Positions 6,517 to 30,754 of a DNA stretch of 31,129 nt are shown here, one piece after another. The stretch lies in contig JBJKPV010000123.1 in assembly GCA_046706015.1 (NCBI GenBank), positions 1 to 31,129 on the forward strand. Reading direction: 5' to 3'. The notes below the pieces were generated by a model, which ran no database searches, was not told where the DNA came from, and saw only the letters and a program-made list of their open reading frames with translations. Numbering within the stretch: position 1 is the stretch's first letter; each line of letters starts with the position of its first letter. The position numbers and the translations under genes are program-made. The DNA comes from Stellaceae bacterium (GTDB lineage Bacteria; Pseudomonadota; Alphaproteobacteria; ATCC43930; CGMCC-115725).

Positions 6517-8085
6517 TCAGGCGGTCGGGAAGAATTGATAGAGCCAAGTCTCGCTTAAGGTCTTGCCGTTAAGGCGCAGGAAGCAGCGCAGGTTCAAGGG
6601 CTGGTTGCCCTGAGCATGCACATCGAAAAAGGCGCGCCAAATCTTGGTGCCGACCACTCGGATGACATAAGCGTTACTGATCGTGCCGCGCGACAAGGTC
6701 ACGACCGGCTTGACGTCGAAGCGCGGCGCCATCGCGGCAAGCGGCCCGCCCATGAAATCGATCACGAATTTCCAGCTGTCGCGATCTTGCGGTGACGGCT
6801 TGCCCGGAATGCCGCCATGCCCGATGCGCGTGGCGATCACATGCGCGACATCGGTCGCGGGATGCGGCTCGTCATCCTGCCAATAGAGGCGATAAGCGAG
6901 CGGCAAGGTCTCGCCGGCTTTGACCGAGCCGTGCGGCTGCCAATAGGCGACGATGTTGTCGTGAATTTCATCCGTGGTCGGAATCTCGACGAGTTGTACG
7001 GCACCGGCGCCCCAATTGCCCTTGGGTTCCACCCAAATGCTGGGCCGCCGGTTATAAAAAGCGCCGTCATCCTGATAGTCGGCGAAGTCGCGGTCGCGCT
7101 GCATCAGGCCGAAGCCCTTGGGATTGACGTCGAGGAAGGAATTGACCTGGAGCGACGGCGGATCGACGAGCGGGCGCCAAATCCGCTCACCCTTCCCGGT
7201 CCACAAGGCCAGGCCGTCGCTGTCATGGATCTCGGGACGCCAATCCGTATCGGCGCGGCGATCGTTCTCGCCGTACCAAAACATGCTGGTGAGCGGCGCG
7301 ACGCCGAGACGGGCGATATCGCTCCTCATGAAGAGTGTCGCGTCGATATCCATGACCGCGCCCTTGCCCTTGGTAACGCGAAAGCGATAAGCGCCGGTGA
7401 GACTGCGTCCGTCGAGCAAGGCGTAGACATCGATCACGGGTTCGCTAGCCGATGGTTCGGCCAGCCAGAATTCGACGAAGCGCGGGAATTCCTCCCTGGT
7501 GGAAAGCCCGGTGTCGACGGCGATGCCGCGCGCCGAGGCGCCATATTGATTGTCGGAGCCGGCGCTGCGGAAATAGCTCGCGCCCTGAAAGGCGAGCCAG
7601 TCCGTTTTGGCGTCGTGGCCGTCCATGACGCGAAACCCGGAAAATCCGAGCGTCGCGGGCAGCTTTTGCTCGAGACCGGTGGCGCCGTAGTCGAAATCGG
7701 CCGGCGTGTAGAGAACTTGGCGCGCCATGCCGCCCGAGACGGCGTTGATGGTGACGGGCACGGCGACGAATTTGTCGAGATGGAAAAAAGCAACGGGAAA
7801 CGGCCCGGGACCGGTGCGCCATAGAGCCCGGTCCATGCGAAATTTGATTTTCTGCACCGTGTCGAAATCGATCGTCTTGACGATGTCCGGCGCGGGCGCG
7901 GTTGGCGCAACATAGCTCTTCTTGGCGAGCGTCGCCGCACGTTGCTTCAGCAAGTCGAAGCTGAAAGGCTGAGATGGGCCTAATAGCGCGCCGCCCGGCG
8001 CCGCCCGCGCAGTGCCATGTCCGGCCGAAATCGTCAACAACGCATAGGCAATCGCCGAATTGATGAAGCCCCGGCGGTCGATCAA
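6517..8085 (-). CDS. opgD: Glucan biosynthesis protein D/G family (OpgD-like, Tat-exported; GH186 family by established knowledge)
   Basis: Twin-arginine signal MIDRRGFI, with FQGASYFRS, QYGASARG, REEFPRF, PLTSMFWYGE, RPEIHDSDGL, GFGLMQRDR, EIHDNIVAYW and terminal SETWLYQ motifs. The Tat signal favours OpgD over Sec-exported OpgG. Confidence 0.92.
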   Translation of the reverse strand: MIDRRGFINSAIAYALLTISAGHGTARAAPGGALLGPSQPFSFDLLKQRAATLAKKSYVAPTAPAPDIVKTIDFDTVQKIKFRMDRALWRTGPGPFPVAFFHLDKFVAVPVTINAVSGGMARQVLYTPADFDYGATGLEQKLPATLGFSGFRVMDGHDAKTDWLAFQGASYFRSAGSDNQYGASARGIAVDTGLSTREEFPRFVEFWLAEPSASEPVIDVYALLDGRSLTGAYRFRVTKGKGAVMDIDATLFMRSDIARLGVAPLTSMFWYGENDRRADTDWRPEIHDSDGLALWTGKGERIWRPLVDPPSLQVNSFLDVNPKGFGLMQRDRDFADYQDDGAFYNRRPSIWVEPKGNWGAGAVQLVEIPTTDEIHDNIVAYWQPHGSVKAGETLPLAYRLYWQDDEPHPATDVAHVIATRIGHGGIPGKPSPQDRDSWKFVIDFMGGPLAAMAPRFDVKPVVTLSRGTISNAYVIRVVGTKIWRAFFDVHAQGNQPLNLRCFLRLNGKTLSETWLYQFFPTA

Positions 8086-8302
8086 CAGCTTTTACCTCAC
8101 ATGAAAAAAAGCAACGAGAGTCGCGCCACCGGTCGCGACCTCGTCGGTGACGATCCGCCTATAGAACGCGCGGCGAGACGAAGCGGGCTGTGATTATTAT
8201 GTGCCTCGCAAATCGCAACGCCGAAAACGCCGGCCGCGTGTCACGGATTGGTCATCGCGCGAAGGGGACATAAATTCGATATCGCGGCGTTGTTCCCCGC
8301 AT

Positions 8303-19416: not shown

Positions 19417-19911
19417 CGTGCTCGACGCGCATGCAGCATCGCTCTCGCTTCTTTGTTCGGAAGAGCGCAAGACGAGTCGGGATGAAGGTCGCGACAATCT
19501 TCGCGTCGCACGAAGCACGAAATCGCGTGCCGTCAATGAGTTTCGAATGTCCGTCACTAGACGCATTTCCGAACTGATTGACAACGTCAAAGCGCGGGCC
19601 GCGTTCCTCGAAACGCGCGCGAAAGCGACGGATCACAGCGATGTCACACGGTCGACTGCGTGCTTGCCAGTTTCGCGAGCACTCGGCCGCGTTCGCGCAG
19701 TCACGCCGATATCACACCGACACTGCAAGGAATTGCGCGTTAATACGATGCCATCGATCGACCGTCACGCAGGACGACACAATCGCGCAAATGACGAGAA
19801 TGGGCGAGACCGTGTTCGAGAGATTCGTTGTCGCGGCGGGGTCGCGCCAAATCCGGCGCAGCGGATCCGGGTCCGGCGCGCCCCGGCCGACGCGCCATTA
19901 GGCAAGCCGCA

Positions 19912-21540
19912 ATGTCGATGTTCGCTGGGGTCGCCAGTCGCCATTCTGGCGAGCAGGACTCCTATCTTCATCGCGTGGCGCCACTGGCGCTGCTTGCGGG
20001 CGCGCTTGCGATCTTCACGCTGCTGCGAGCCCTTCTTCTTGCCGTGGCGACGAGCGCCGCGATCGATTGCCTCGGCCTCGACATCATTACTTTTGCCGGC
20101 GCCGCGCTTTTGGCCGGCATTCGCTACCAGGAGATCGCACCTTTTGCACGGCCGCTGTTGCGGGGGATCGGTGCTGTCGTTCTGGTTCAGGTCGCGTTCG
20201 ATGTCGTCGCGTTGATCGACGACCCGGTAAGCATGACATCGGGCGCCAACGGCGCCTTTTTTGGGGCCGGCGGCGTGCTGGCGTTGATCGCCGGCATCGG
20301 CGCCCTGTGGCGTCCGAGCTTTCTCCTTCCGCTCTTCTTTCACTACGTGGCATTTCGCCACCAGCTGAGCATTGTCGGCGGCATCGAGATATCCCAAACG
20401 GATTACCTGAGCATGCTCGATATCGGCGAGTTCATCGCGCTCGGCACGCTCTTGGTCGCATACGTGACGCGGCCGGCCTTCCTCGGCCGGTTCGGTTCGG
20501 TGAGCGTCAATGCCGCTGAATTGCGCGCCGGCGCCTGTGCGCTCATCGTCGCCTGGGCGATCGGCGCGCATCTGGGAAATTATTTCGTCTCCGGCTGGAC
20601 CAAGATACGCGCCGGCGGTGCCGATCCGCTCTTTTGGCTTCTCCACAATCCGACTCAGACCGCGATCCTCATCGGGCTCGAGCGCGGCGACAACATCTTG
20701 GCCGCCTGGCCTTGGCTCGTCCAGCTGAGCTGGGACGCGATTACCAAGCTCCTCATCCCGGTCAACATCTTCGTACTCGGCACGCAGTTTCTGGTGCCGC
20801 TCGCCGCGCTGCACCGCCGCGCGCTGATGGTTTTCACCGTCCTCTTCGACCTCTTTCACGTCGTCGTCTATTTCACCCTGGGCGCGGCGTTCTTTTTCTG
20901 GGTCGCGGTCAATATCCTCATCTATCTGTCGCTGAAGCGGATCGACGACCGCGCCTGGACGCCGGCGCTGAGCCTCGTCACGATCGCGGCGATCCTGACG
21001 GCGCATTGGACCTTCTATACGAGCCATCTTGGCTGGCTCGACACCGCGAAGCTGGCCAGTCCGCGCTTCTTTGCCGAAACCCGCGACGGGCGCGAGGTTC
21101 CGGTTCCGTCGGTCTATTTCGGGAATGTGTCCTATTCGATTGCGCAGACCGCGATGTACGTCCCCGACGACAATTTCGCGATGCGTGTCGGCGGCAACAC
21201 GCATGACCCCTCGGCTTGGCGACGCGCGCAGCGCTGCACGCCCGATTTCGTCCATCGCCAGGACACGGGCGTGGGTCTGCCGGCGGTCGAGAGCATGGTG
21301 CGGGGCGCCGACGCCGCGATGCGCCGCCATCCGATCGTCAAGAATGACAATCTCTATTACTTCTACCCCTACCACATGGTTGCCAACCCGATGATGTTCG
21401 CGGCCTTCAATCGGTTGAAGATCGGCGACATCGTGCGTTACCACTATGTGGTCGAGTCGGTTTGCCTCGGGCTGAAGCACGGCAAGCTGGTCCGCGACGT
21501 CCTCAAGCGAACGGATTTCCCGATCGATGTCGGCCGCTGA
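19912..21540 (+). CDS. HTTM-like (vitamin-K-dependent carboxylase / LMF superfamily) polytopic membrane protein with a C-terminal soluble domain
   Basis: About 10 hydrophobic segments. NYFVSGWTKI...W matches the HTTM Y..(S/A)G..K motif and LFDLFHVVVYFTLGAAFFFW matches FH....G..F. It overlaps a DCC gene, a known HTTM neighbour. Confidence 0.65.
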   Translation: MSMFAGVASRHSGEQDSYLHRVAPLALLAGALAIFTLLRALLLAVATSAAIDCLGLDIITFAGAALLAGIRYQEIAPFARPLLRGIGAVVLVQVAFDVVALIDDPVSMTSGANGAFFGAGGVLALIAGIGALWRPSFLLPLFFHYVAFRHQLSIVGGIEISQTDYLSMLDIGEFIALGTLLVAYVTRPAFLGRFGSVSVNAAELRAGACALIVAWAIGAHLGNYFVSGWTKIRAGGADPLFWLLHNPTQTAILIGLERGDNILAAWPWLVQLSWDAITKLLIPVNIFVLGTQFLVPLAALHRRALMVFTVLFDLFHVVVYFTLGAAFFFWVAVNILIYLSLKRIDDRAWTPALSLVTIAAILTAHWTFYTSHLGWLDTAKLASPRFFAETRDGREVPVPSVYFGNVSYSIAQTAMYVPDDNFAMRVGGNTHDPSAWRRAQRCTPDFVHRQDTGVGLPAVESMVRGADAAMRRHPIVKNDNLYYFYPYHMVANPMMFAAFNRLKIGDIVRYHYVVESVCLGLKHGKLVRDVLKRTDFPIDVGR

Positions 21541-21937: not shown

Positions 21938-23044
21938 ATGGCAATGCCCGACACGCTTGGCTTCGAGCTCCGCGAGGATGCGGGCTGCTGGACGGTTTCC
22001 CGCGCGGCGGCCAATCGTCCGGTCGTGGCGACGATCGTCATCCCCACCTATCGCGCCGCCGCGACGCTGAACCGCGCGCTGTTGAGCGCGTTGAGTCAGA
22101 CAATGACCGATATCGAAGTGATCGTGGTCGACGACGCGTCGACCGACGCGTCTTGGGATCTGGCGCTCGAGGCGATGCGCCACGAGCCGCGGCTGCATGG
22201 AATCAGGAACAAGCGCAATTGCGGCAAGCCGGTCGGAATGAATCGGGCGATCGCGCTCGCCCGTGGCCGCTGGCTCGCGGTCTTGGATGCGGACGATTGG
22301 TACCGGCCCGAGCGGCTGGAGATGCTGATCGCGTTGGGCGAGAGCACGCATGTCGATCTCGTCGCCGATAACCAGCTCTTCTACGACGCGGGCGCGTCTC
22401 GCGTCGTGGGATCGGCTTGGCCGGAGGCAACGGGCGCGTGGCCACTGAGCTTCGACGACTTCCTTGCAGGGTCCGATGCCTATGAGAGCTTTAATCTCGG
22501 CATGTTGAAGCCCGTCATCCGCACCGATTTCCTGCGTCGTACCGGGCTCGGCTACCAGGAGCGCGCGCGGCACGGCCAGGATTTCTTCCACCTCCTGGAA
22601 TTCTTCCTGCAGGGCGGAAAGGCCGTCGTCTCCGACCGGGCGCTCTACCATTACACGCTGCCTTTCGGCGCGGTCTCGCGGCGTTGGTCGCATGCCGAGC
22701 GCCGGCGATACGACTTTCAGACTGCTTGCGACATCAACCGGCAGTATCTCGTCGCGGCGCACGCCACGCTCACCTCCGCACAAGCGGCGCAACTGAAACG
22801 TCGCAATGATAAGCTCACATCACTCGAAATGTTTTTCCAGGCGCGCGAGCGGTTTGGGCAAGGCGATGCGACCGGCGCCGCGGCGAGGATCCTGCGTCGT
22901 CCGGCTACCTTGGCTTATGCTTGGCGGCGGCTGCGCCGCCGTTGGGCGCCCCAGAGCGCATCGCGCCCGATCGAGCGCATCGCCGCCCGCGCTCGCCGGC
23001 ACGCGCGCCAAGCCACAAGCGAGGTTTCCGCTCGCGTATCATGA
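21938..23044 (+). CDS. GT2 glycosyltransferase (ExoO/ExoU-like)
   Basis: IVIPTYRAAATL, VIVVDDASTD, GKPVGMNRAI, WLAVLDADDW and GQDFF motifs. Confidence 0.93.
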   Translation: MAMPDTLGFELREDAGCWTVSRAAANRPVVATIVIPTYRAAATLNRALLSALSQTMTDIEVIVVDDASTDASWDLALEAMRHEPRLHGIRNKRNCGKPVGMNRAIALARGRWLAVLDADDWYRPERLEMLIALGESTHVDLVADNQLFYDAGASRVVGSAWPEATGAWPLSFDDFLAGSDAYESFNLGMLKPVIRTDFLRRTGLGYQERARHGQDFFHLLEFFLQGGKAVVSDRALYHYTLPFGAVSRRWSHAERRRYDFQTACDINRQYLVAAHATLTSAQAAQLKRRNDKLTSLEMFFQARERFGQGDATGAAARILRRPATLAYAWRRLRRRWAPQSASRPIERIAARARRHARQATSEVSARVS

Positions 23045-25371
23045 AGAGCGACCAGAATTTCGCCGACAACAATTTCACCGTCTTGCGCCTGCTGCTGGCG
23101 CTGATGGTGGTGCTCGGCCATTTCCAGCTTCTCGCCGGCGTTCGATACCCACCTTGGCCCTTCAACTACGCGGCTATGGCCGTTGACTGCTTCTTCGTCG
23201 CGAGCGGCTATCTCGTCACCAGCAGCTTCGATCGCGATTCCGGCCTGTCGCGCTTTTATATCCGGCGCTTCTTTCGCATCTATCCGCTCTACATCGCGGT
23301 CGTGACCGCGCAGACCTTCGTCCTCGGCGCGCTCGTTTCGGGCGGCGCGCTCGCCAATCTTCACTCGCTCTTGCGCTATTTCGTCGTCAACGCCGCTTTC
23401 GCGAATTTCCTCCAATACGATGTCGGCTCGCATGTCCTGCGCGGTCTCGTCAATCCCAGCCTCAATCCAAGCCTGTGGACCCTCAAGATCGAGTTCGCCT
23501 TCTATCTCATTCTGCCCGCGCTGTGGTGGGCGGTGCGCCGTTACGGCACGTCTGTCCTCGTCGCGATCTTCGTCCTCTCGGCCCTTTATTACGGCGTTCT
23601 CAACCATGCCGGAGAGTACCGGCTCGCCAAGCAACTCCCAGGTCAGCTTCAGTTCTTCGTGCTGGGAATGGCGGTCTATAAGTTTCGCGACCGCCTCGCA
23701 ATCCCGCCTTGGCTCGGCCTCGTCGCGACCTTGGCCCTTGCCGCATTCTGCACGAGCTTGCTCGCAAGTCGCCCGCCGGTGATCTATCCGTTCACGGTCG
23801 GCAGCCTCGTCGCCGTCGCCGCGCTGGCCGCGCCGCGCCTCAGGCTCACGACCGACATCTCCTATGGCGTCTATCTGCTGCATGGGCCGATCATTCAATT
23901 GTCCCTGCTGTTCGGCCTCTACCAAGCCGGCAGGCTGGGGCTCGGCGCGACCGTCGCCGCAGTCTTGGTCTTGGCGGCGATCGTCGAGCGCGTGATCGAG
24001 CGGCCGGGCATCGCGGCCGGTCGCCGGCTGTCGCGGAAATTTGGGCCGCCCGCGGCGCCGCGTGTCACACCCGCAGCTTCGACCGCGACGGCGCGCGCGT
24101 TGGAGCCTGGATTCTCTTCCGCCGCCGCGGCGCCCGGCCTCACCGTCGTCGTGCTCAATGATTTCTGTCACGTGCAAGGTGGTGCGAGCAAGGTTGCAGT
24201 CGACGAGTCGCTCAGCCTGACCCGCTCGGGAACGAACGTGATTTTTCTCGGCGCGGTCGGCCCCGTCTGTGCGGAGCTTCGCCGTTCGGCTGTGGCGGTC
24301 GAGTGCCTTGGTCAAAGCGAGCTGCTCGATTTCGCGCGGCATCCCGGTGTTGCGCTTCAAGCCTTGTGGAATTTCAAGGCGGCGCGCCGCGCCCGCGCGA
24401 TCCTCCAAGCGCTGCCGCGCGACAACACGATTGTCCATGTCCACGGCTATACCACGGCGCTGAGCACCAGCCCGGTGCGAATGGCGCGTCGGCTGGGGTT
24501 TCCGGTCGTGTGCACGCTCCATGATTTCTTCGCGGCCTGCCCCAACGGCGCGTTCTTCGATTATCTGGCCGAGAAACCATGCCTGCGGCGGCCGCTGTCC
24601 CGCCAATGCGTCGCCGCGCGTTGCGACAAGCGTCGCTATGCGCATAAGCTTTTCCGCGTCCTGCGCAGCTGGCTTCAGCGCCACGCCGGTCGTTTCCCCG
24701 ACGCGATCGAGGACTACATCGCGCTCTCGAACCAATCGGGCGCGCTGTTGGCGCCTTACCTGCCGCGACAAGCGCGGCTCCATCATCTCCCGAACCTCGC
24801 CGATGTCGTGCCGCAGCCGTCGGTCGCGGCCGCGAAGAGCCGCGCGATCCTTTACATCGGCCGACTCGATATTGAAAAAGGCGTCCGGCTCCTCGCCGAG
24901 GTGAGTCATCGCTTGGGCATTGCAATCGTCTTCGTCGGCGACGGGCCGCTGCGCCCGGAGCTTGAAGCGATCCCAGGCGTATCCGTAACCGGGTGGCTGG
25001 GCCGCGACGAAGTCCGGCGCCACCTCGATCAGGCGCGCTGTCTCGTCTTTCCAAGCCTCTGGTACGAGACCTACGGTCTCACCGTCAGCGAGGCGGCCGC
25101 GCGCGGCATTCCCGCGATCGTCAGCGACATCTCCGCGGCGGCGGAGCGCGTCCGCGACGGCGTGACCGGCTGGCGTTTTCGCAGCGGCGATGCCGGCGAT
25201 CTCGCGCGCTGCTTGAGGCTGATCGAGGACGACGCCGTGGTGGCGGCGGCCGGCGACGCGGCCTATCGCGCCTTCTGGAGCGACGCCGAAACGCCCGACG
25301 TGCACGCGAAAAAGCTCATGGGTATCTACGACATCACCCTGCGCAGAAGGACCGCGGCGTGCGCGGCGTGA
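23041..25371 (+). CDS. Fusion of an acyltransferase-3 (OafA-type) membrane domain and a GT4 glycosyltransferase
   Basis: ATGA overlap. AT3 motifs RLLLALMVVLGH, DCFFVASGY, RRFFRIYP, SLWTLKIEFAFY and ISYGVYLLH. An Ala/Pro linker (~24030-24140) leads to a GT4 with QGGASKV, TLHDFF, GRLDIEKG and E-x7-E ETYGLTVSE. Confidence 0.9.
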   Translation: MKSDQNFADNNFTVLRLLLALMVVLGHFQLLAGVRYPPWPFNYAAMAVDCFFVASGYLVTSSFDRDSGLSRFYIRRFFRIYPLYIAVVTAQTFVLGALVSGGALANLHSLLRYFVVNAAFANFLQYDVGSHVLRGLVNPSLNPSLWTLKIEFAFYLILPALWWAVRRYGTSVLVAIFVLSALYYGVLNHAGEYRLAKQLPGQLQFFVLGMAVYKFRDRLAIPPWLGLVATLALAAFCTSLLASRPPVIYPFTVGSLVAVAALAAPRLRLTTDISYGVYLLHGPIIQLSLLFGLYQAGRLGLGATVAAVLVLAAIVERVIERPGIAAGRRLSRKFGPPAAPRVTPAASTATARALEPGFSSAAAAPGLTVVVLNDFCHVQGGASKVAVDESLSLTRSGTNVIFLGAVGPVCAELRRSAVAVECLGQSELLDFARHPGVALQALWNFKAARRARAILQALPRDNTIVHVHGYTTALSTSPVRMARRLGFPVVCTLHDFFAACPNGAFFDYLAEKPCLRRPLSRQCVAARCDKRRYAHKLFRVLRSWLQRHAGRFPDAIEDYIALSNQSGALLAPYLPRQARLHHLPNLADVVPQPSVAAAKSRAILYIGRLDIEKGVRLLAEVSHRLGIAIVFVGDGPLRPELEAIPGVSVTGWLGRDEVRRHLDQARCLVFPSLWYETYGLTVSEAAARGIPAIVSDISAAAERVRDGVTGWRFRSGDAGDLARCLRLIEDDAVVAAAGDAAYRAFWSDAETPDVHAKKLMGIYDITLRRRTAACAA

Positions 25372-25439: not shown

Positions 25440-26414
25440 ATGTTCGGTTATCTGTCGGTCGCACAATTATCGGCCGCGATCCGCGCCAAGCTGACCATCA
25501 TCCCCGACGACATCGATCTCGTTGTCGGCATTCCGCGCAGCGGCATGATCCCGGCCTATCTGATCGGCCTGTTCCTGAACCGCCTCGTCATCGATCTCGA
25601 AACCTTTCTCAATGACGGGCCGGCGCCGGGTCATGGCGCGCGGCGCATCGGCGCGGAGGTCGCGAGCCCACTCGATGCCAGGCACGTGCTTCTCGTCGAC
25701 GACAGCCTGGCCTCTGGGGCATCGATGAATGCCTGCATCGGCCGGGTCGCAGCGTCGCGTTTCGCCGGCCGGCTGACGAGCTGCGCCGTCGTCGTTGAGC
25801 CCGCGATGGCGGAGCGGGTCGATCTCCATTTCGTGCAGATGCCGCAGCCGCGCATCTTCGAATGGAATGCCTTCCACCATCCTTATATCGAGATGTCATG
25901 CTTCGATCTCGACGGTCTTCTTTGCGCCGATCCGACGCCGCAGGAGAACGATGACGGGCCGCGCTATCGCGCGTTTCTTCGCGCCACGCCGCCGCTTTTC
26001 AGGTCGACCCGTCGCATCGGGCATATCGTCTCCGCGCGGCTCGAGAAATATCGGCCCGAGACCGAAGCCTGGCTCGCCGCTCATGGCATCAGCTATGGCG
26101 CCCTCCATCTCATCGACCTGCCTAGCCGTGCCGAGCGCATGCGCCTGGGGGCGCATCACCGGCACAAGGCACGGGTGTTCCGCGAGAGCGGCAGCGTTCT
26201 CTTCTACGAGAGCGATCCGGACCAGGCGCAAGAGATCGCGCGCCTTGCGGGCAAGCCCGTCTTGTGCGTTGCCGACATGGATCTGCGCTTACCCGATGGC
26301 TTCCAGGTCAAAGCGCATATCAAGAACGCGAAATGGCATTTGCGCCGCCCCTTGGGTCGGTTCAAGGGGCAATTGCGCGAGAAGATGCGCGGCCTGGTGC
26401 GCTGCGTGCCGTGA
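25440..26414 (+). CDS. Fusion of a type I phosphoribosyltransferase (N-terminal) and a HAD-superfamily phosphatase (C-terminal)
   Basis: DLVVGIPRSG and PRPP loop VLLVDDSLASGASM. Then HAD motif I FDLDGLL, motif II VSAR, a motif III Lys (HKARV) and acidic motif IV FYESD. Confidence 0.85.
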   Translation: MFGYLSVAQLSAAIRAKLTIIPDDIDLVVGIPRSGMIPAYLIGLFLNRLVIDLETFLNDGPAPGHGARRIGAEVASPLDARHVLLVDDSLASGASMNACIGRVAASRFAGRLTSCAVVVEPAMAERVDLHFVQMPQPRIFEWNAFHHPYIEMSCFDLDGLLCADPTPQENDDGPRYRAFLRATPPLFRSTRRIGHIVSARLEKYRPETEAWLAAHGISYGALHLIDLPSRAERMRLGAHHRHKARVFRESGSVLFYESDPDQAQEIARLAGKPVLCVADMDLRLPDGFQVKAHIKNAKWHLRRPLGRFKGQLREKMRGLVRCVP

Positions 26415-27037
26415 CCCTCGTCGATGCCTTGCGCACGGCCAAACGCACCGCTTTGCGCAACGCAAAGCGTGTCGGAAAGCCGTTCGGCTACAGTGAGGTC
26501 AATTGGCTGCGCGTGCGGCAGATAGAGCGCTGGCAGGAATTTCTCGGCCGGCAGGCCCCGCTCGGCGACGGGCTGGAAATCTCGCCGGGCTGGAACGAGA
26601 TGTGGCGCCGCCTTCCTTGGCGCGTCTATGAGACGGTCGATTATCCCGATTTCGACATTTGCCGCGAGCGGCTCGATCGGCGCTTCCATATCGTCATCGC
26701 CGATCAAGTGCTGGAGCACGTCGCCGACCCGCGCGGCGCGGTCGCCAATATACGGGCGATGCTGCAGCCCGGCGGCTACGCGTTAATCGCGGCACCGTTT
26801 CTCTTTCGCGTCCACGCGAGGCCTCACGACTACTATCGCTGGACCGAGCTGGGCCTGAAGACGCTCTGTCGCGACGCCGGCTTCGACACCGCCGCGATCG
26901 CAGTCGAATCCTGGGGCAACAAGGCCTGCGTCAAGGCGCATCTCGGCGGTCCGGTGCGCGATTACGGCTTCGGCCGCGATTTGAGCAACGATCCGGAATA
27001 TCCGGTCATGGTCTGGGCATTTGCGCGGAACCTATGA
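26411..27037 (+). CDS. Class I SAM-dependent methyltransferase-like protein (Methyltransf_11 type)
   Basis: GTGA overlap with the PRT-HAD gene. FHIVIADQVLEHVADP...LQPGGY and PHDYYRWT. Motif I is degenerate (LEISPG). Confidence 0.75.
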   Translation: MTLVDALRTAKRTALRNAKRVGKPFGYSEVNWLRVRQIERWQEFLGRQAPLGDGLEISPGWNEMWRRLPWRVYETVDYPDFDICRERLDRRFHIVIADQVLEHVADPRGAVANIRAMLQPGGYALIAAPFLFRVHARPHDYYRWTELGLKTLCRDAGFDTAAIAVESWGNKACVKAHLGGPVRDYGFGRDLSNDPEYPVMVWAFARNL

Positions 27038-27053
27038 TATCCCGGCTGGCTCC

Positions 27054-27776
27054 TCAGCCCATGGCGGCTTCGGCGCGCGTGTCTTGCAGGATCTCGGCGA
27101 CCGCCTCGGGGCCGGCGGCGATGCGAAGATGAGGCAGGTCGCGTTCGAGCGTCGCCTGGTCGCGTGCCGTGCCGAACCAGACGACGGTCTCGCATAAGCT
27201 CATGAGCGGCAGATCGTCGCGATGATCGGTGAAGACGATCCGCGGCCGCTCGTGCCAGCCGAGGCCGGCAAGGAATTGCATCACGGCATCCCGCTTCTGC
27301 GCGCCGGCATTGCTCGGCTCGCTCGGCGCGCGCTGTCGCTTTGTCGCCAGCACATGTGCGAATCCCAAGGCGCGGCCCAAGCCCTCGGCATAATCCGCGA
27401 CCGCTGCCGTCGCGAGCACGGTATCGATCGACCCGGTCGCGATCGCCGCGAGCGCCGGCGCCATTTCCGGGCGCACCGCGCGCAAGAGCTGGCCGATCAA
27501 TAATTGTTCGGCGGCACCGCGATCGCCCGCCGTTGCCGCCTGCCAACGGTGCTGCAGGCGTCGCTTGAAATCCTCATGGCCGATCAAGCCGGTTTTGCGC
27601 AGGGCCAAGAGAAGAAGCGTCGCCGCGACGGCGCGCGTTCGCTGCGCGGGGCGGAGCTGCGCGAACGGCGCGCGCAGCATGAAGCGGACCCAGCAGGGAA
27701 AGCTGTTGACGGCGAGTATGGTGCCGTCGAGGTCGAAGATCAGGACGGGGTCGCGTTCAGCGCGTCGAGCGACCAT
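27054..27776 (-). CDS. HAD-superfamily (subfamily IB-like) phosphatase
   Basis: Motif I LIFDLDGTI, motif II VLATAA, Lys in GAQKR and motif IV FTDHRDDLPL. The start is 27776 or 27788, overlapping the PRTase gene end. Confidence 0.85.
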   Translation of the reverse strand: MVARRAERDPVLIFDLDGTILAVNSFPCWVRFMLRAPFAQLRPAQRTRAVAATLLLLALRKTGLIGHEDFKRRLQHRWQAATAGDRGAAEQLLIGQLLRAVRPEMAPALAAIATGSIDTVLATAAVADYAEGLGRALGFAHVLATKRQRAPSEPSNAGAQKRDAVMQFLAGLGWHERPRIVFTDHRDDLPLMSLCETVVWFGTARDQATLERDLPHLRIAAGPEAVAEILQDTRAEAAMG

Positions 27777-28360
27777 GGGAAGCGGCATAATTGACCTTGA
27801 TAGAGCGCATAATCCGGCTGAATGAGTGGCTCTTCCGTCGTCACGGTGATGACCGCGGAGCGCAGCAGGGTCGCGTGCGGCAGGCGCGCGCGGACGGTCT
27901 CGCAAACCTGCAGCAACGTGGCGCCGCTATCGACCGCGTCATCGACGACGAGCGCCAGGCTTTCGCCCGCGGACGCTCTCGCCCAAGCATCGAGCGTCGC
28001 GAGCTCGGCCTCGTCGAAGCGATGCGGAACGGCAGGCCGCGCCGGCGGCTTGCGCGTCAGCATCGCGTGCTCTATCACGCGGAGGCGATCGACGACCGGA
28101 CGCGGCAGGTGCCCGATCACTTCGCTCACCACGGCGGCGCGAGCCTTGTGCGCGGTCGACGGCCGGCGGCAGGTCATGGCGATGACCGGCAGGTTCGATC
28201 TGTCTTCCCGCGCCATCGCCTCGGCGACGATCAGCCCGCCCGTCCTGATGCCAATGAGAAGATCGGGACGTCGGTCGCGCGCGACCAGCTCCATGAGCGC
28301 GCCACAAGCGTCGGCGAAGCCGCGCTTATCGAAGCTGATCACGCCCCTCGGACGCTTCAT
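27740..28360 (-). CDS. Stand-alone type I phosphoribosyltransferase
   Basis: ATGA overlap with wzy. PDLLIGIRTGG, PRPP loop LVVDDAVDSGATL, AVITVT and C-terminal PDYALY...CRFPWS. Confidence 0.88.
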   Translation of the reverse strand: MKRPRGVISFDKRGFADACGALMELVARDRRPDLLIGIRTGGLIVAEAMAREDRSNLPVIAMTCRRPSTAHKARAAVVSEVIGHLPRPVVDRLRVIEHAMLTRKPPARPAVPHRFDEAELATLDAWARASAGESLALVVDDAVDSGATLLQVCETVRARLPHATLLRSAVITVTTEEPLIQPDYALYQGQLCRFPWSLDALNATPS

Positions 28361-29727
28361 CGCAAGGCCGCCATGCGGCTTGCACGCAACGGCATGTCGA
28401 TCCGCCCGCGCGTCTCGCAGACCAAGGCGCCCAGCGCGGCGCCAAGAAAGAGGGCTGCGGCTTGGTCTTCGAGCACGGAGAGCACCGTCCCATAGCCGAA
28501 GACGAAGGCGATAATCGCGACCGCGGTTGCAGCGCGCTCCTGCGATCCGGAAATCGGCCGGAACACGAGCCAGAGGATCGCGGTCAGGTAGAAGAGCGCG
28601 AAAACGCCGAAATAGGCGTAGAGGAGGATGAAGATATTGTCGGCCGGGTTGAAGCTGTCGATCGCATAAAGCCGCTGCGGTCCGCCGATGCCACCGAGGC
28701 CGACGCCGAAGAACAGCATTTGATGCCGCGTGATCCAGCGCCAGGCCTCGGGCCAAGTATAATCCATGCGCAGATAGAGCGATGCTGTGCTGAAGACGCC
28801 GCTGCCGTGCTCCATGTGTAGATCCATGATCAAAAACGGCAAACCGACGGCGGCGATCATGAAACCGGCGCAGCTAAGCCGAAGCCAGCGCAGGCGGTGC
28901 GCGGCCGGGAACAGCAAGATGGCGGCGATGGGCAGAAAGGCGACGAGCGCGCCCTTTTGCGTCGTGAGCAGAACGGCACCGACGGATACGAGCAGCAGCG
29001 CGGCGCGCCACAACCAACGCTGGATGCGCGCGAGCAGCACGATTGCAAGCGGCGGGACGAGGGCGGCGACCGAGATCGAACTGCGCGTGAAGCCGGCGAC
29101 GCGGCGGGCGAATTCGTTTTGAACGTCCCAATTCTTCGACACGTCGACATTGAGGTCGCCGACCACGGTCTTGATCCCGGTCCAGGGAAAGGTCAGCACG
29201 AATTTGTCGAGCCCGATGCCGACCATCGTGATCAGCCAGACCGCCAACAGGAAGGCGAAGACGCGGTCGCCGGGGCGCAACAGCAACGAGGCGACGAAAT
29301 AGCCGAAGAGCAGGTTGACCAGGACCTTCACGCCGTAGGCGACGCCGGCGACACTGCCGATCGTCCCCATCAAGACGAGTCCGTGAAAGGCGATCAGTGC
29401 CCCGAATAGCGCAAAAGCCGGGTGAAGGCGCAGGCGCATCGCCTGCGCCGCCACGAGCAGGGCGAGCGGGACGAGGATCAGCGCGTCGCGCAGGAGGATG
29501 AAATTGTCTTTTCCCGATAAATAAAGCCCATAGCGAATCGGTGCCTCGAGCGCGTAGATCCCGAGATAGACGAGGCTGGACAAGAGGAAGACCTTGCCCA
29601 TCCGTGCGCTGTCGATGTTGCTGAGACCGTCGAGCGCCGCACTGACGGGCAGCGGCCGGCCTTGCACGGCACCACTACCCATGCGCCGCGGCCGCGCGCG
29701 ATCGTTCGCGATCTCGGTTTGAGCCAT
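28357..29727 (-). CDS. Wzy polymerase / O-antigen-ligase-like membrane protein (Wzy_C)
   Basis: About 12 TM segments, RVAGFTRSS loop, and a late periplasmic loop followed by FGVGLGGIG and ADNIFILLYAYFGV. It sits in a Wzx-containing locus that has no other polymerase. Confidence 0.75.
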   Translation of the reverse strand: MAQTEIANDRARPRRMGSGAVQGRPLPVSAALDGLSNIDSARMGKVFLLSSLVYLGIYALEAPIRYGLYLSGKDNFILLRDALILVPLALLVAAQAMRLRLHPAFALFGALIAFHGLVLMGTIGSVAGVAYGVKVLVNLLFGYFVASLLLRPGDRVFAFLLAVWLITMVGIGLDKFVLTFPWTGIKTVVGDLNVDVSKNWDVQNEFARRVAGFTRSSISVAALVPPLAIVLLARIQRWLWRAALLLVSVGAVLLTTQKGALVAFLPIAAILLFPAAHRLRWLRLSCAGFMIAAVGLPFLIMDLHMEHGSGVFSTASLYLRMDYTWPEAWRWITRHQMLFFGVGLGGIGGPQRLYAIDSFNPADNIFILLYAYFGVFALFYLTAILWLVFRPISGSQERAATAVAIIAFVFGYGTVLSVLEDQAAALFLGAALGALVCETRGRIDMPLRASRMAALR

Positions 29728-29942
29728 GCACTATCACGATAGGAGGAGACCCGACGGCCGCAACCTTGCGCGCCGTGACCAATATGTGGCTCGGCTTCGC
29801 GATGGTCGGCTGCGCTGTGGAGGCGCCTGCCACAGTTTTGCCCAACTGGCATGGAGGCGTGGCGATGCGCCGGGAGGGCGTCGATTGGGGCGCGCCGCCC
29901 TTCCAGGTGGTTTGCGCCGACTGCGTCAACCTGTCTCGCCGG

Positions 29943-29970
29943 ATAACCGGTTCTTAACCGGATTCGTTAA
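29943..29970. promoter_or_regulatory. CtrA-like box (ATAA-N7-TTAAC) plus an extra TTAA half-site
   Basis: GG ATAA CCGGTTC TTAAC CGGATTCG TTAA. This is an AT-rich island in the divergent intergenic region between wzy and the next gene. TAACCGG is repeated with 11 nt periodicity. Confidence 0.4.
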
Positions 29971-30172
29971 AAATCGAGGCAACGGCCCGCCTCCCGCGTG
30001 GCATCGCAGGAAGGGCGGGCGCGATGTCGCAGCGCGGCCCCGGCCGTTCACAGAAGGCATATCGAGATGAACCCGCCTGTCCCGATCGCGGTGCTTTCCT
30101 CCGCCCCGGTCATGGACGGGCGCCGCCGCGATCAAGCGCCGAGAGCGGACCGTCGACAGGCCGGGGACTGAG

Positions 30173-30754
30173 ATGATGCGGTTAGCGGGCGGAAGCGCGA
30201 CAGCCAGCGCGCGCACTTTCGAGATCCAAAGAAACGCGGGCGGCCGCTGGATGCTCGATACGGTCGCCGACGACAAGCAGATCGCGATCAACCTCGCCAA
30301 TGCGCTGTTGCGCAGCGGCCGCGCGCCCACGGGCGTGCAGGTGGTCGCCGTGATGGAAACGGATGTCGGACGCTTCAAGGAAGTGCAGGTTTATCGCGCG
30401 ACGCCGGAAGATCAGCTCGACCGCGATGCCGCCCCGCCGCGGCGCGTCGCTCGGCCGAGCGCGAAAATGCGGATCGATCGCACCCGTCACGAGATCGCGC
30501 GCGATGCGCGCTCACAGCCCAATCAGACGACTTCGCCGCAGCTGGCCGCCGCCGTCAAGGCGCGCGCGGCGGCCGTGCGGCGCACGCGCGTCGCGACTTT
30601 GACGTTGATCGGGGTTGCGATCGTCTGGTGCTCGATCTTCTATCTCTGGCGTCAGCCGCAAACGCCCTGGGCCTTTGATTCGTCCGCGGCGCAGCACGAA
30701 AGCGCCCAGCCCAACAGCTTCGAGTCGAAGTTCCGCAACATCTTTTCGCACTAG
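30173..30754 (+). CDS. Hypothetical protein with a soluble N-terminal domain, basic linker and one C-terminal TM helix
   Basis: Ordered-looking N-terminus (FEIQRNAGGRWMLD...AINLANALL...VQVVAV) and TM segment TLTLIGVAIVWCSIFYLW. Codon usage looks like that of neighbouring genes. Confidence 0.65.
   Translation: MMRLAGGSATASARTFEIQRNAGGRWMLDTVADDKQIAINLANALLRSGRAPTGVQVVAVMETDVGRFKEVQVYRATPEDQLDRDAAPPRRVARPSAKMRIDRTRHEIARDARSQPNQTTSPQLAAAVKARAAAVRRTRVATLTLIGVAIVWCSIFYLWRQPQTPWAFDSSAAQHESAQPNSFESKFRNIFSH

What the first reader, a model, noticed from the sequence alone, without database searches (positions are those of the whole stretch)
27054..28360. Second, split PRTase + HAD pair translationally coupled behind wzy
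Seen: wzy, PRTase and HAD form one minus-strand unit. There is an ATGA overlap at 28357-28360 and an unusually long 37-49 nt overlap between PRTase and HAD. These are not recent duplicates of the fused gene, since the HAD motif IV types differ (FTDHRDD versus FYESD) and so do the flanks. Inference: two independent phosphoribosylation steps on one polymer, giving two different Ribf linkages or a Ribf-Ribf side chain. Alternatively one pair phosphoribosylates a different acceptor.
Basis: partly seen in the sequence, partly recalled or inferred. Interest (0 to 1): 0.7.

Follow-up and report, generated by a model that had tools for sequence, protein, structure and literature searches.

The report
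Split ribose-adding enzyme pair in EPS locus
Two overlapping genes, a purine-salvage-like phosphoribosyltransferase and a phosphatase, form a conserved and uncharacterised pair that most likely adds the sugar ribofuranose to an exported polysaccharide; this would be a third, separately evolved version of a two-step chemistry first described in 2022.

Summary
On the minus strand, a Wzy_C-type membrane protein (28357-29727), a 206-aa type I phosphoribosyltransferase (PRT, 27740-28360) and a 240-244-aa HAD-IB phosphatase (27054-27776/27788) lie head to tail. There is an ATGA overlap between wzy and PRT, and a 37- or 49-nt overlap between PRT and HAD.

The pair shares only the PRPP loop and HAD motif I with the fused PRT-HAD gene at 25440-26414, so the two are not recent duplicates.

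The PRT belongs to a large unnamed family (559 clusters at E<=1e-30). In all 42 related genomic loci fetched, from Alphaproteobacteria, Bacteroidota and Acidobacteriota, a HAD gene follows it directly and usually overlaps it.

Natural fusions tie the pair to glycan synthesis: GT2-PRT, PRT-HAD and HAD-pyruvyltransferase. The predicted fold is closest to xanthine-guanine PRTs, with a 55-aa helical insert and an altered base-binding hood. The genome has its own gpt and apt.

Best reading: PRPP-dependent transfer of ribofuranose-5-phosphate to a glycan, followed by dephosphorylation. This is analogous to gPRT-PRP, CriT-CrpP and BtrL-BtrP, with no detectable homology to gPRT-PRP or CriT-CrpP.

The split pair is the conserved core of this EPS locus type. 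The fused gene is the accessory one, so "second" is a misnomer. The link to wzy reflects synteny of the whole locus. No activity was tested. By sequence look-up, the scan had noted this split family only in this window.

The parts
28357..29727 (-). Wzy_C-family polytopic membrane protein (456 aa), the putative repeat-unit polymerase of the EPS locus
   Evidence: There is no Pfam hit for the window protein itself. Many of its 246 close homologues (53-68% identity) carry PF04932 Wzy_C, and one is named an O-antigen ligase domain protein. Hydropathy shows about 10-12 hydrophobic segments. The gene lies directly upstream of the PRT in 16 of 19 alphaproteobacterial loci.
27740..28360 (-). Stand-alone type I phosphoribosyltransferase (206 aa). 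It has an intact PPi loop (IRTGG) and PRPP loop (VVDDAVDSGAT), a helical insert of about 55 aa (residues ~63-118, with invariant TCRR / LPRP / E-H motifs) and the C-terminal motif LCRFPWS.
   Evidence: PF00156 at 1.4e-8. AF2 model pLDDT 88.7. The best structural matches are XGPRT-type enzymes: 7kl6 Z 17.6, 4z1o Z 17.4, 1vdm Z 17.2. The family alignments are A1 and A3. There are 559 clusters at E<=1e-30.
27054..27776 (-). HAD-IB phosphatase (240 aa from ATG 27776, or 244 aa from ATG 27788). All four HAD motifs are intact: DLDGT, T/ATAA, K161 and TDHxDD.
   Evidence: PF12710 at 6.8e-18. All 25 family members scanned hit TIGR01490 HAD-IB. Invariant D15, D17, T19, K161, D184 and D188 appear in A2. 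AF2 model pLDDT 94.8. The best structural match is 3fvv, followed by SerB/PSP.
27740..27788 (-). PRT/HAD overlap (37 nt from ATG 27776, 49 nt from ATG 27788), suggesting translational coupling
   Evidence: Sequence. HAD starts lie within about 80 nt of the PRT stop in 42 of 42 loci, and most overlap it. DNA alignment of the seven closest loci.
28357..28360 (-). ATGA stop/start overlap between wzy-like and PRT
   Evidence: Sequence. This overlap is not conserved in related loci.
25440..26414 (+). Fused PRT-HAD gene (context only). It is unrelated to the split pair beyond superfamily motifs and is accessory to the locus type.
   Evidence: It is present only in the window and L001.
26264..27037 (+). 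SAM-dependent methyltransferase, convergent with the HAD gene (16-nt gap). Its true start probably lies downstream of 26264.
   Evidence: Pfam Methyltransf_23/11. The L001 homologue aligns only from residue 49.

Best explanation
The PRT and HAD genes encode a two-enzyme ribofuranosyltransferase. In the cytoplasm, the PRT binds PRPP through its canonical type I PRPP and PPi loops. It transfers ribofuranose-5-phosphate to a hydroxyl of a sugar in the growing undecaprenyl-diphosphate-linked EPS repeat unit; as an inverting enzyme it should give a beta linkage. The HAD-IB phosphatase then removes the 5-phosphate. The repeat unit can then be completed, flipped by Wzx, polymerised by the Wzy_C protein and exported. 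The overlapping reading frames keep the two proteins in fixed ratio, perhaps as a complex. Shown here: gene structure, intact catalytic motifs, folds, universal pairing, fusions to glycan enzymes, and non-membership of salvage families. Inferred: PRPP as donor, a glycan as acceptor, ribose-5-phosphate as the phosphatase substrate, and the beta linkage.
For: 1) The PRT has an intact PRPP loop with vicinal acidic residues and an intact PPi loop, and a confident type I PRT fold. 2) The HAD has all four catalytic motifs invariant and a confident C1-capped HAD fold. 3) The PRT-then-HAD gene order is adjacent in 42 of 42 loci from three phyla, mostly overlapping. 4) Natural fusions: PRT-HAD (P0121, P0307, P0312), GT2-PRT (L037, L039, P0304) and HAD-polysaccharide pyruvyltransferase (L019). 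5) Context: a complete Wzx/Wzy/Wza/PCP EPS cluster in the window, syntenic in about 19 alphaproteobacterial loci; a GT2 lies immediately upstream in 11 Bacteroidota loci. 6) It is not salvage. It scores far below the curated cut-offs for gpt (22.8 against 138) and hpt (15.6 against 150). The genome has its own gpt, apt and prs. The Gpt hood motif WILFPWD aligns to LCRFPWS. The gene is found in only 6 of 151 genomes of the order. 7) Precedent for the chemistry: gPRT-PRP (PMC11127046, PMC11294581, PMC11231755), CriT-CrpP of Hib Bcs3, which stays active when split in trans (PMC10299916), BtrL/BtrP (PMC13707489), and WbaM, a classical-PRT-type gene tied to Ribf in a Wzx/Wzy O antigen (PMC7685785).
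Against: No biochemical or compositional data exist for any member. No polysaccharide structure with ribose is known from any host of this locus. The PRT fold is closest to purine salvage enzymes, and neither protein shows detectable sequence or top-ranked structural similarity to the proven glycan enzymes T. composti PRP-gPRT or Hib Bcs3. In one Rickettsiales-like MAG (L020) the pair is not in a recognisable glycan locus. The alphaproteobacterial context is a single syntenic locus type, so those loci are not independent evidence.
Confidence: 0.6

Rival explanations
1. The pair makes a lipid-linked donor. The PRT phosphoribosylates undecaprenyl phosphate and the HAD dephosphorylates it to Und-P-Ribf. 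That donor is flipped and used outside the cytoplasm (possibly by the adjacent Wzy_C-type membrane protein) to decorate the polymer, as in the three-component pentofuranose systems.
For: The three-component logic (PRPP-dependent lipid PRT, HAD PRP, membrane transferase) is established (PMC11127046). 13 of 25 HAD family members weakly match the HAD part of NF006088, a HAD plus UbiA fusion family. A polytopic membrane protein sits directly upstream in 16 of 19 alphaproteobacterial loci.
Against: The known lipid PRTs are integral-membrane UbiA enzymes, whereas this PRT is a soluble Gpt-like protein with no hydrophobic segment. No UbiA or GT-C gene was found among the window ORFs scanned. The Wzy_C protein is the only polymerase candidate of a Wzx/Wzy locus, and it is absent from the Bacteroidota loci, where a cytoplasmic GT2 is the fused partner.
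Confidence: 0.1
2. The pair ribosylates a small molecule that is neither a glycan nor a lipid, such as a base-like or aglycone acceptor. This would give a nucleoside-like product that is then glycosylated or acts as a cofactor or signal, as in the PRT/HAD steps of nucleoside-antibiotic and aminoglycoside pathways.
For: The closest folds are purine PRTs. PRT plus HAD pairs are used for small-molecule ribosylation (BtrL/BtrP, PMC13707489). The adenine phosphopsicosyltransferase 7f06 appears among the structural matches at Z 12.1, and the alnumycin phosphatase 4ex7 among the HAD matches. In L020 the pair lies outside a glycan locus.
Against: There are no other secondary-metabolite genes nearby. 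There are fusions to GT2 and to a polysaccharide pyruvyltransferase. The pair is embedded in an export-competent EPS locus.
Confidence: 0.15
3. The PRT is an ordinary purine salvage enzyme (a second gpt/hpt) and the HAD a nucleotidase, sitting in the EPS locus by accident; or the PRT is a non-catalytic nucleotide or ppGpp sensor that regulates EPS synthesis.
For: The best structural neighbours are XGPRTs and a ppGpp-bound PRT-like protein (5vog, Z 15.7). Automatic source annotations call the homologues 'hypoxanthine phosphoribosyltransferase'.
Against: It fails all curated salvage HMM cut-offs. The hood Trp position is an invariant Leu, followed by Cys-Arg. A true gpt and apt are present in the genome. 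The distribution is patchy. It is always paired with a HAD and fused to glycan enzymes. The fully conserved catalytic loops argue against a pseudo-enzyme.
Confidence: 0.07

Closest known systems
Dual-domain ribofuranosyltransferases PRP-gPRT (Klebsiella pneumoniae O4/O7, Salmonella T1 STM0726, Thermobacillus composti structure) and CrpP-CriT of Haemophilus influenzae type b Bcs3
   Same: The proposed two-step logic is the same: a PRT-fold domain takes PRPP and puts Ribf-5-P on a sugar or alditol, and a HAD phosphatase removes the 5-phosphate. CriT and CrpP still work when separated in trans (PMC10299916).
   Different: Those enzymes are single polypeptides with the phosphatase N-terminal, and they work in ABC-transporter-dependent pathways. 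In CriT the ribose-binding acidic pair is split between two loops (D680/E818). Here the genes are separate and PRT comes first. The PRT is a canonical PF00156 enzyme with vicinal DD, closest to XGPRTs, and the context is Wzx/Wzy. No sequence-profile hit, and no hit among the listed structural matches, to the solved members was obtained.
WbaM-type fused PRT-HAD proteins (E. coli O183 / Shigella boydii 10), to which an earlier report of this scan assigned the window's own fused gene 25440-26414
   Same: Both have a classical type I PRT domain followed by a HAD-like domain, and both occur in Wzx/Wzy-dependent loci. WbaM is reported as required for adding Ribf to GlcA (PMC7685785).
   Different: The split PRT aligns to the window's fused gene only over the 41-column PRPP loop (hhalign probability 44%), and the HAD only over motif I. 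The HAD subtypes and motif IV differ. The pair is split, with rare PRT-HAD fusions of its own lineage. I did not verify the WbaM assignment of the fused gene.
BtrL / BtrP (NeoL / NeoP) of butirosin and neomycin biosynthesis
   Same: Two separate proteins carry out the steps. A PRPP-dependent phosphoribosyltransferase O-ribosylates a sugar-like acceptor (neamine) and a separate phosphatase removes the 5''-phosphate (PMC13707489).
   Different: The acceptor there is a small aminoglycoside within a secondary-metabolite cluster.
Xanthine-guanine phosphoribosyltransferases (Gpt/XGPRT: 7kl6, 4z1o, 1vdm; the genome's own gpt)
   Same: The type I PRT core, PPi and PRPP loops and the C-terminal F-P-W element are shared. 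hhalign to the genome's own Gpt gives probability 93% over the C-terminal half, and structural Z is 17.
   Different: The split PRT has a helical insert of about 55 aa with invariant basic residues. The hood motif W-I-L-F-P-W-D is changed to L-C-R-F-P-W-S. It scores far below the curated cut-off, is always paired with a HAD gene, is found in glycan loci, and is patchily distributed.

Membership tests
Type I phosphoribosyltransferase superfamily (PF00156) | PRPP-binding loop (hydrophobic run, two acidic residues, then D/T-S/T-G-x-T) and PPi loop on a five-stranded alpha/beta core | tested here: met
   PF00156 scores 34.6 bits against a cut-off of 26.3. VVDDAVDSGAT and IRTGG are conserved, with D140, D141, D144 and G146 invariant. 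The AF2 model has pLDDT 88.7, and structural Z is 17 to XGPRTs.
Purine/pyrimidine salvage PRTs (gpt, hpt, apt, pyrE, upp equivalogs) | Score above the curated NCBIfam cut-off of an equivalog model | tested here: not met
   The best scores are xanthine PRT at 22.8 bits (cut-off 138) and HGPRT at 15.6 bits (cut-off 150). The genome's own gpt scores 266 bits.
Purine/pyrimidine salvage PRTs (gpt, hpt, apt, pyrE, upp equivalogs) | Aromatic base-stacking residue in the C-terminal hood (the first W of W-I-x-F-P-W in Gpt-type enzymes; its role is recalled from the literature, not tested) | tested here: not met
   The aligned position is an invariant Leu, followed by Cys-Arg (LCRFPWS), both against 1vdm and against the genome's own Gpt.
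Purine/pyrimidine salvage PRTs (gpt, hpt, apt, pyrE, upp equivalogs) | Housekeeping distribution | tested here: not met
   It was found in 6 of 151 genomes of the order, 5 of 120 high-quality ones, and 1 of 10 other genomes of the genus.
PRP-gPRT / CrpP-CriT ribofuranosyltransferases | A PRT-fold PRPP-dependent transferase functionally coupled to a HAD phosphatase | tested here: met
   The genes are adjacent or overlapping in 42 of 42 loci, and natural PRT-HAD fusions exist. The coupling is genetic only; activity was not tested.
PRP-gPRT / CrpP-CriT ribofuranosyltransferases | One polypeptide with the phosphatase N-terminal and the transferase C-terminal | tested here: not met
   These are two genes with the PRT first. 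The rare fusions of this lineage are PRT then HAD.
PRP-gPRT / CrpP-CriT ribofuranosyltransferases | Recognisable sequence or close structural similarity to solved members (T. composti enzyme, Bcs3) | tested here: inconclusive
   Profiles A3 and A2 against all PDB sequences at E<=10 listed no such chain. None appeared in the Foldseek lists shown or in the top 50 of the wide VIA search. Absence from these lists does not exclude a distant relationship.
PRP-gPRT / CrpP-CriT ribofuranosyltransferases | Transfer of Ribf-5-P from PRPP to a glycan acceptor, followed by dephosphorylation | not testable with these tools
   This needs an enzyme assay or EPS chemistry.
WbaM-type fused PRT-HAD | Sequence similarity across both domains to the fused family (represented here by the window's fused gene) | tested here: not met
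   Only the PRPP loop (41 columns) and HAD motif I (14 columns) align.
HAD superfamily phosphatases, subfamily IB | Motifs I (DxDxT), II (T/S), III (K) and IV (acidic pair), with a C1 helical cap | tested here: met
   D15, D17, T19, K161, D184 and D188 are invariant. PF12710 scores 66 bits. All 25 members scanned hit TIGR01490, although the window protein itself is below the cut-off at 36.8 against 98.3. The model's best matches are 3fvv and SerB/PSP.
Three-component lipid-linked pentofuranose systems (PPPRS-PRP, flippase, GT-C) | UbiA-family integral-membrane polyprenyl-phosphate phosphoribosyltransferase | tested here: not met
   The PRT is a soluble PF00156 protein. No UbiA-family hit was found among the window ORFs scanned.
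Wzy_C (O-antigen ligase/polymerase) family, for the upstream gene | PF04932 domain in a polytopic membrane protein | tested here: inconclusive
   The window protein gives no Pfam hit even at E<=10. Many homologues at 53-65% identity carry precomputed PF04932. It has about 10-12 hydrophobic segments.

The most novel reading that the evidence does not exclude
This is a third, independently evolved lineage of glycan ribofuranosyltransferases. It arose from a Gpt-like purine salvage enzyme through a ~55-aa basic helical insert and a remodelled hood, and it works as a translationally coupled two-protein machine with a HAD-IB phosphatase. Its presence as a GT2-PRT-HAD cassette in many gut Muribaculaceae and other Bacteroidales would then point to an unrecognised ribofuranose-containing glycan in common gut commensals, as well as in a widespread alphaproteobacterial EPS.
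Probability: 0.45. Interest if true: 0.7.

Novelty: new variant of a known kind. Interest (0 to 1): 0.55.

Why it matters
Ribofuranose occurs in many bacterial surface glycans, but its route of incorporation was solved only in 2022-2024, and only for two enzyme types: PRP-gPRT/CriT, and the lipid-linked UbiA route. The proven cytoplasmic PRP-gPRT/CriT enzymes come from ABC-transporter-dependent pathways. A canonical Gpt-like PRT paired with a HAD-IB phosphatase in Wzx/Wzy loci would widen the set of markers used to predict ribose in glycans from sequence. It would correct the widespread automatic label 'hypoxanthine phosphoribosyltransferase' on these genes. It would show a salvage enzyme recruited to glycan synthesis, and it would give glyco-engineers a small two-protein module. 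The window is also unusual in holding two unrelated PRT-HAD systems in one locus, which makes it a natural test case for acceptor specificity.

Tried and rejected
Gene context came from the search for related loci and my own tblastn instead.
2) One search scanned L019:7300-8281 out of frame and found nothing. The correct frame (7295-8281) is a polysaccharide pyruvyltransferase. The first tblastn used the same wrong frame and is disregarded.
3) The phylogeny against the genome's gpt, apt and the fused-gene PRT domain gave saturated branches (length 10) for all three. It cannot root or place them. It shows only a Proteobacteria clade (support 97/93) separate from the Bacteroidota sequences.
4) The promoter and terminator scan of 26800-30300 gave nothing above shuffled expectation.
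5) PADLOC defence models gave no hit for any of the three proteins.
6) The Kelly et al. 2022 paper is not held. Its content is cited only through later open papers.
7) The paper search for ribose-containing polysaccharides of Niveispirillum, Telmatospirillum or Stella found nothing relevant. The first WbaM search was swamped by an unrelated acronym.
8) A 'longer' homologue search found only one fusion. The exhaustive representative search found three more.
9) I considered that the Wzy_C gene forms a dedicated three-gene module with the pair. I rejected this because the whole EPS locus is syntenic, the spacing is variable, and the gene is absent from the Bacteroidota loci.
10) Not done: expression data (sequencing runs), a fold of the Wzy_C protein, a PRT:HAD complex model, and any check of BtrL/BtrP or WbaM sequences themselves.
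Full report
**What is in the window.** The window (64.8% GC) carries a Wzx/Wzy-type exopolysaccharide locus between about 10.7 and 29.7 kb. The locus contains:
- a Bac_transf priming enzyme, a Wza-like exporter and a Wzz/GNVR co-polymerase;
- a GT4 fusion, a pectate-lyase-like protein, a Wzx flippase and a GT2;
- an acyltransferase-3/GT4 fusion, a fused PRT-HAD gene and a methyltransferase.

At its right end, on the minus strand, three genes lie head to tail:
- a 456-aa polytopic membrane protein (28357-29727);
- a 206-aa phosphoribosyltransferase (PRT, 27740-28360);
- a HAD hydrolase (27054-27776 or -27788).

The PRT start ATG overlaps the upstream TGA as ATGA at 28357-28360. The PRT stop (27742-27740) lies 37 or 49 nt inside the HAD frame, depending on which ATG is used. 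GC3 of 0.81-0.82 supports both frames.

**Identity of the two proteins.**
- The PRT matches PF00156 above the gathering cut-off. It has the PPi loop (IRTGG) and the PRPP loop with two vicinal Asp (VVDDAVDSGAT).
- The second protein matches PF12710 (HAD) at 6.8e-18. In an alignment of 25 family members the catalytic residues of all four HAD motifs are invariant: D15, D17, T19, K161, D184 and D188.
- AlphaFold models built on these alignments are confident, at pLDDT 88.7 for the PRT and 94.8 for the HAD.
- The PRT model is closest to small xanthine-guanine-type purine PRTs. VIA-align gives 7kl6 Z 17.6, 4z1o Z 17.4 and 1vdm Z 17.2; Foldseek gives E 1e-8. Relative to these it carries an extra helical segment of about 55 residues (~63-118) with invariant TCRR, LPRP and E-H motifs.
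- The HAD model is a C1-capped HAD-IB enzyme, closest to 3fvv and the SerB/PSP phosphatases.

**Relation to the fused gene in the same locus.** BLASTP and profile-sequence (hhalign) comparisons align the split PRT to the fused protein only over the PRPP loop (41 columns, probability 44%). The two systems are not recent duplicates.

**The pair is a conserved cassette.**
- The PRT has at least 524 close stand-alone homologues of about 205 aa. An exhaustive profile search finds 559 representative clusters at E<=1e-30 and 926 at E<=1e-10.
- Forty-two genomic loci were fetched: 20 from Alphaproteobacteria (Stellaceae, Niveispirillum, Telmatospirillum, other Rhodospirillales, a Hyphomicrobiales megaplasmid and a Rickettsiales-like MAG), 21 with Bacteroidota-type context (Muribaculaceae, Duncaniella, Bacteroides, Odoribacter and others) and one from Acidobacteriota.
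- In 41 of them a gene with the DxDGT motif begins within about 50 nt of the PRT stop, in another frame. In the 42nd (L041) it follows after 78 nt.
- Most pairs overlap by 1-49 nt. Among the seven closest loci the 37-nt-overlap ATG is always present, while the 49-nt position reads TTG or CTG. So 27776 is the more likely HAD start.
- That ATG lies in the CCA-TGG codons of the PRT's invariant FPWS motif, so its conservation is partly imposed by the PRT.

**Links to glycan synthesis.** Three kinds of natural fusion exist:
- PRT-HAD: P0121, P0307 and P0312.
- GT2-PRT: L037, L039 and P0304.
- HAD fused to a polysaccharide pyruvyltransferase, PF04230 at 3e-17, in L019.

In Bacteroidota a GT2 gene is immediately upstream of the PRT in 11 loci. 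In 8 of these a GHL10 gene lies upstream of the GT2; a ninth locus (L035) has the GHL10-GT2 pair about 3 kb upstream of the PRT.

In Alphaproteobacteria much of the EPS locus is syntenic within the fetched flanks: the Wzy_C gene, PRT, HAD and the AT3-GT4 fusion in most loci, and GT2, Wzx and a small Cys-rich protein where the flank reaches them. The pyruvyltransferase gene follows the HAD on the same strand in 13 of 19 of these loci. The fused PRT-HAD gene and its methyltransferase occupy that slot only in the window and in L001. The split pair is thus the conserved core of this locus type, and the fused gene is the accessory one.

**The upstream 'wzy'.**
- The window protein gives no Pfam hit. 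Many of its 246 homologues, at 53-68% identity, carry PF04932 Wzy_C, and it has about 10-12 hydrophobic segments.
- In a locus with Wzx, Wza and a co-polymerase, 'repeat-unit polymerase' is the reasonable label.
- It lies directly upstream of the PRT in 16 of 19 alphaproteobacterial loci. The spacing there varies from about -47 to +135 nt, the whole locus is syntenic, and no such gene accompanies the pair in Bacteroidota.
- The wzy link is therefore locus synteny, not a specific functional coupling.

**Salvage is unlikely.**
- Against NCBIfam the PRT scores 22.8 bits on the xanthine PRT model (cut-off 138) and 15.6 bits on HGPRT (cut-off 150).
- The same, 60%-complete, genome encodes a true gpt (266 bits), an apt and prs.
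- Aligned to that Gpt (hhalign probability 93% over the C-terminal half), the hood motif W-I-L-F-P-W-D corresponds to L-C-R-F-P-W-S. Leu and Arg are invariant and Cys is invariant outside the Acidobacteriota and Bacteroidota rows. From the literature as I recall it, the first Trp stacks on the purine in Gpt-type enzymes.
- The gene is found in only 6 of 151 genomes of the order, and in 1 of 10 other genomes of the genus.
- A tree with gpt, apt and the fused-gene PRT domain as outgroups gave saturated branches and is uninformative about deeper relationships.

**Comparison with what is known.**
- Cytoplasmic Ribf addition is known from PRP-gPRT enzymes. These are single polypeptides with the HAD phosphatase N-terminal and a PRT-like transferase C-terminal, and the proven examples work in ABC-transporter-dependent systems (PMC11127046, PMC11294581, PMC11231755).
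- It is also known from CrpP-CriT in the Hib polymerase Bcs3. There the PRT-like domain has its acidic pair split between two loops, and the two parts still work when separated in trans (PMC10299916).
- A second route uses a UbiA-type lipid PRT with a PRP domain, a flippase and a GT-C (PMC11127046).
- BtrL and BtrP are separate PRPP-dependent O-ribosylation and phosphatase enzymes in aminoglycoside synthesis (PMC13707489).
- WbaM of E. coli O183 is annotated as a phosphoribosyltransferase and reported as required for adding Ribf to GlcA in a Wzx/Wzy O antigen (PMC7685785). An earlier report of this scan assigned the window's fused gene to that type; I did not verify this.

Profiles of the split PRT and HAD families find no solved PRP-gPRT or Bcs3 chain at E<=10. 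None appears in the structural lists. A weak lead is that 13 of 25 HAD members match the HAD part of NF006088, a HAD-UbiA fusion family. The pair therefore works like these systems by inference, but it is not a demonstrable member of any of them.

**Mechanism proposed, with odds.**
- Most likely (about 0.6): the PRT transfers Ribf-5-P from PRPP to a sugar of the lipid-linked repeat unit in the cytoplasm, and the HAD removes the 5-phosphate. The overlapping frames keep the two proteins in fixed ratio.
- Rival: synthesis of a lipid-linked Ribf donor (about 0.1).
- Rival: ribosylation of a small molecule (about 0.15).
- Rival: salvage or a sensor role (about 0.07).
- In the window and L001 a second, unrelated PRT-HAD enzyme and a methyltransferase are added to the locus.

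**Limits.** No activity, expression or polysaccharide chemistry was available. The alphaproteobacterial loci are one syntenic type and are not independent of each other. The look-up of encoding contigs and the protein atlas were closed. One Pfam call (41, third protein) was out of frame and was corrected.

Noticed in passing
L019:6575-8281 (+); also L002, L003, L005-L008, L010, L013, L015-L018 directly after the HAD gene: A polysaccharide pyruvyltransferase gene (PF04230, 3e-17) follows the HAD gene on the same strand in 13 of 19 alphaproteobacterial loci. In L019 it is fused in frame to the HAD as one 568-aa ORF. The window and L001 instead carry the fused PRT-HAD gene plus a methyltransferase in that slot, so this is a variable decoration slot.
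   Followed up: partly
L022, L024, L027, L028, L033, L036, L038 and others (about 3.5-7.2 kb in locus coordinates): Gut Bacteroidales carry a compact GHL10 (PF02638) - GT2 - PRT - HAD island flanked by housekeeping genes rather than a capsule locus. In L037 and L039 the GT2 and PRT are one protein of 511-515 aa. The glycan made by this island is unknown.
   Followed up: partly
L020:5977-7887: In a Rickettsiales-like MAG the PRT-HAD pair is followed by an Rce1-like CPBP membrane protease. Its neighbours are MipZ and TauE genes, so no glycan locus is evident.
   Followed up: no
L003 (CP131057.1, 801,789 bp, labelled plasmid): The same EPS locus type, with wzy, PRT, HAD, pyruvyltransferase, AT3-GT4, wzx and the Cys-rich small protein, lies on an 802-kb plasmid of a cultured Hyphomicrobiales strain. 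One source names the wzy homologue as Radicibacter daui. This strain is a possible experimental host.
   Followed up: no
window 26264-27037 (+): The methyltransferase ORF, as listed from GTG 26264, overlaps the 3' end of the fused PRT-HAD gene by 151 nt. The L001 homologue aligns only from residue 49, so the real start is probably near 26400, close to the fused gene's stop.
   Followed up: no
window 22921-25371 (+) and L001-L019: The acyltransferase-3/GT4 fusion is conserved at 57-70% identity in nearly all alphaproteobacterial loci of this type, so it is a stable fusion and not an assembly artefact. The small Cys-rich ORF next to wzx is also conserved in L003, L006 and L008.
   Followed up: no
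window 19828-21540 (+): This 570-aa ORF has coding-like GC3 (0.80) but gave no Pfam hit even at E<=10.
   Followed up: no
whole genome G000: The source is a fragmented MAG (2.87 Mb, 411 contigs, about 60% complete). Statements that a gene is absent from this genome are therefore weak.
   Followed up: no
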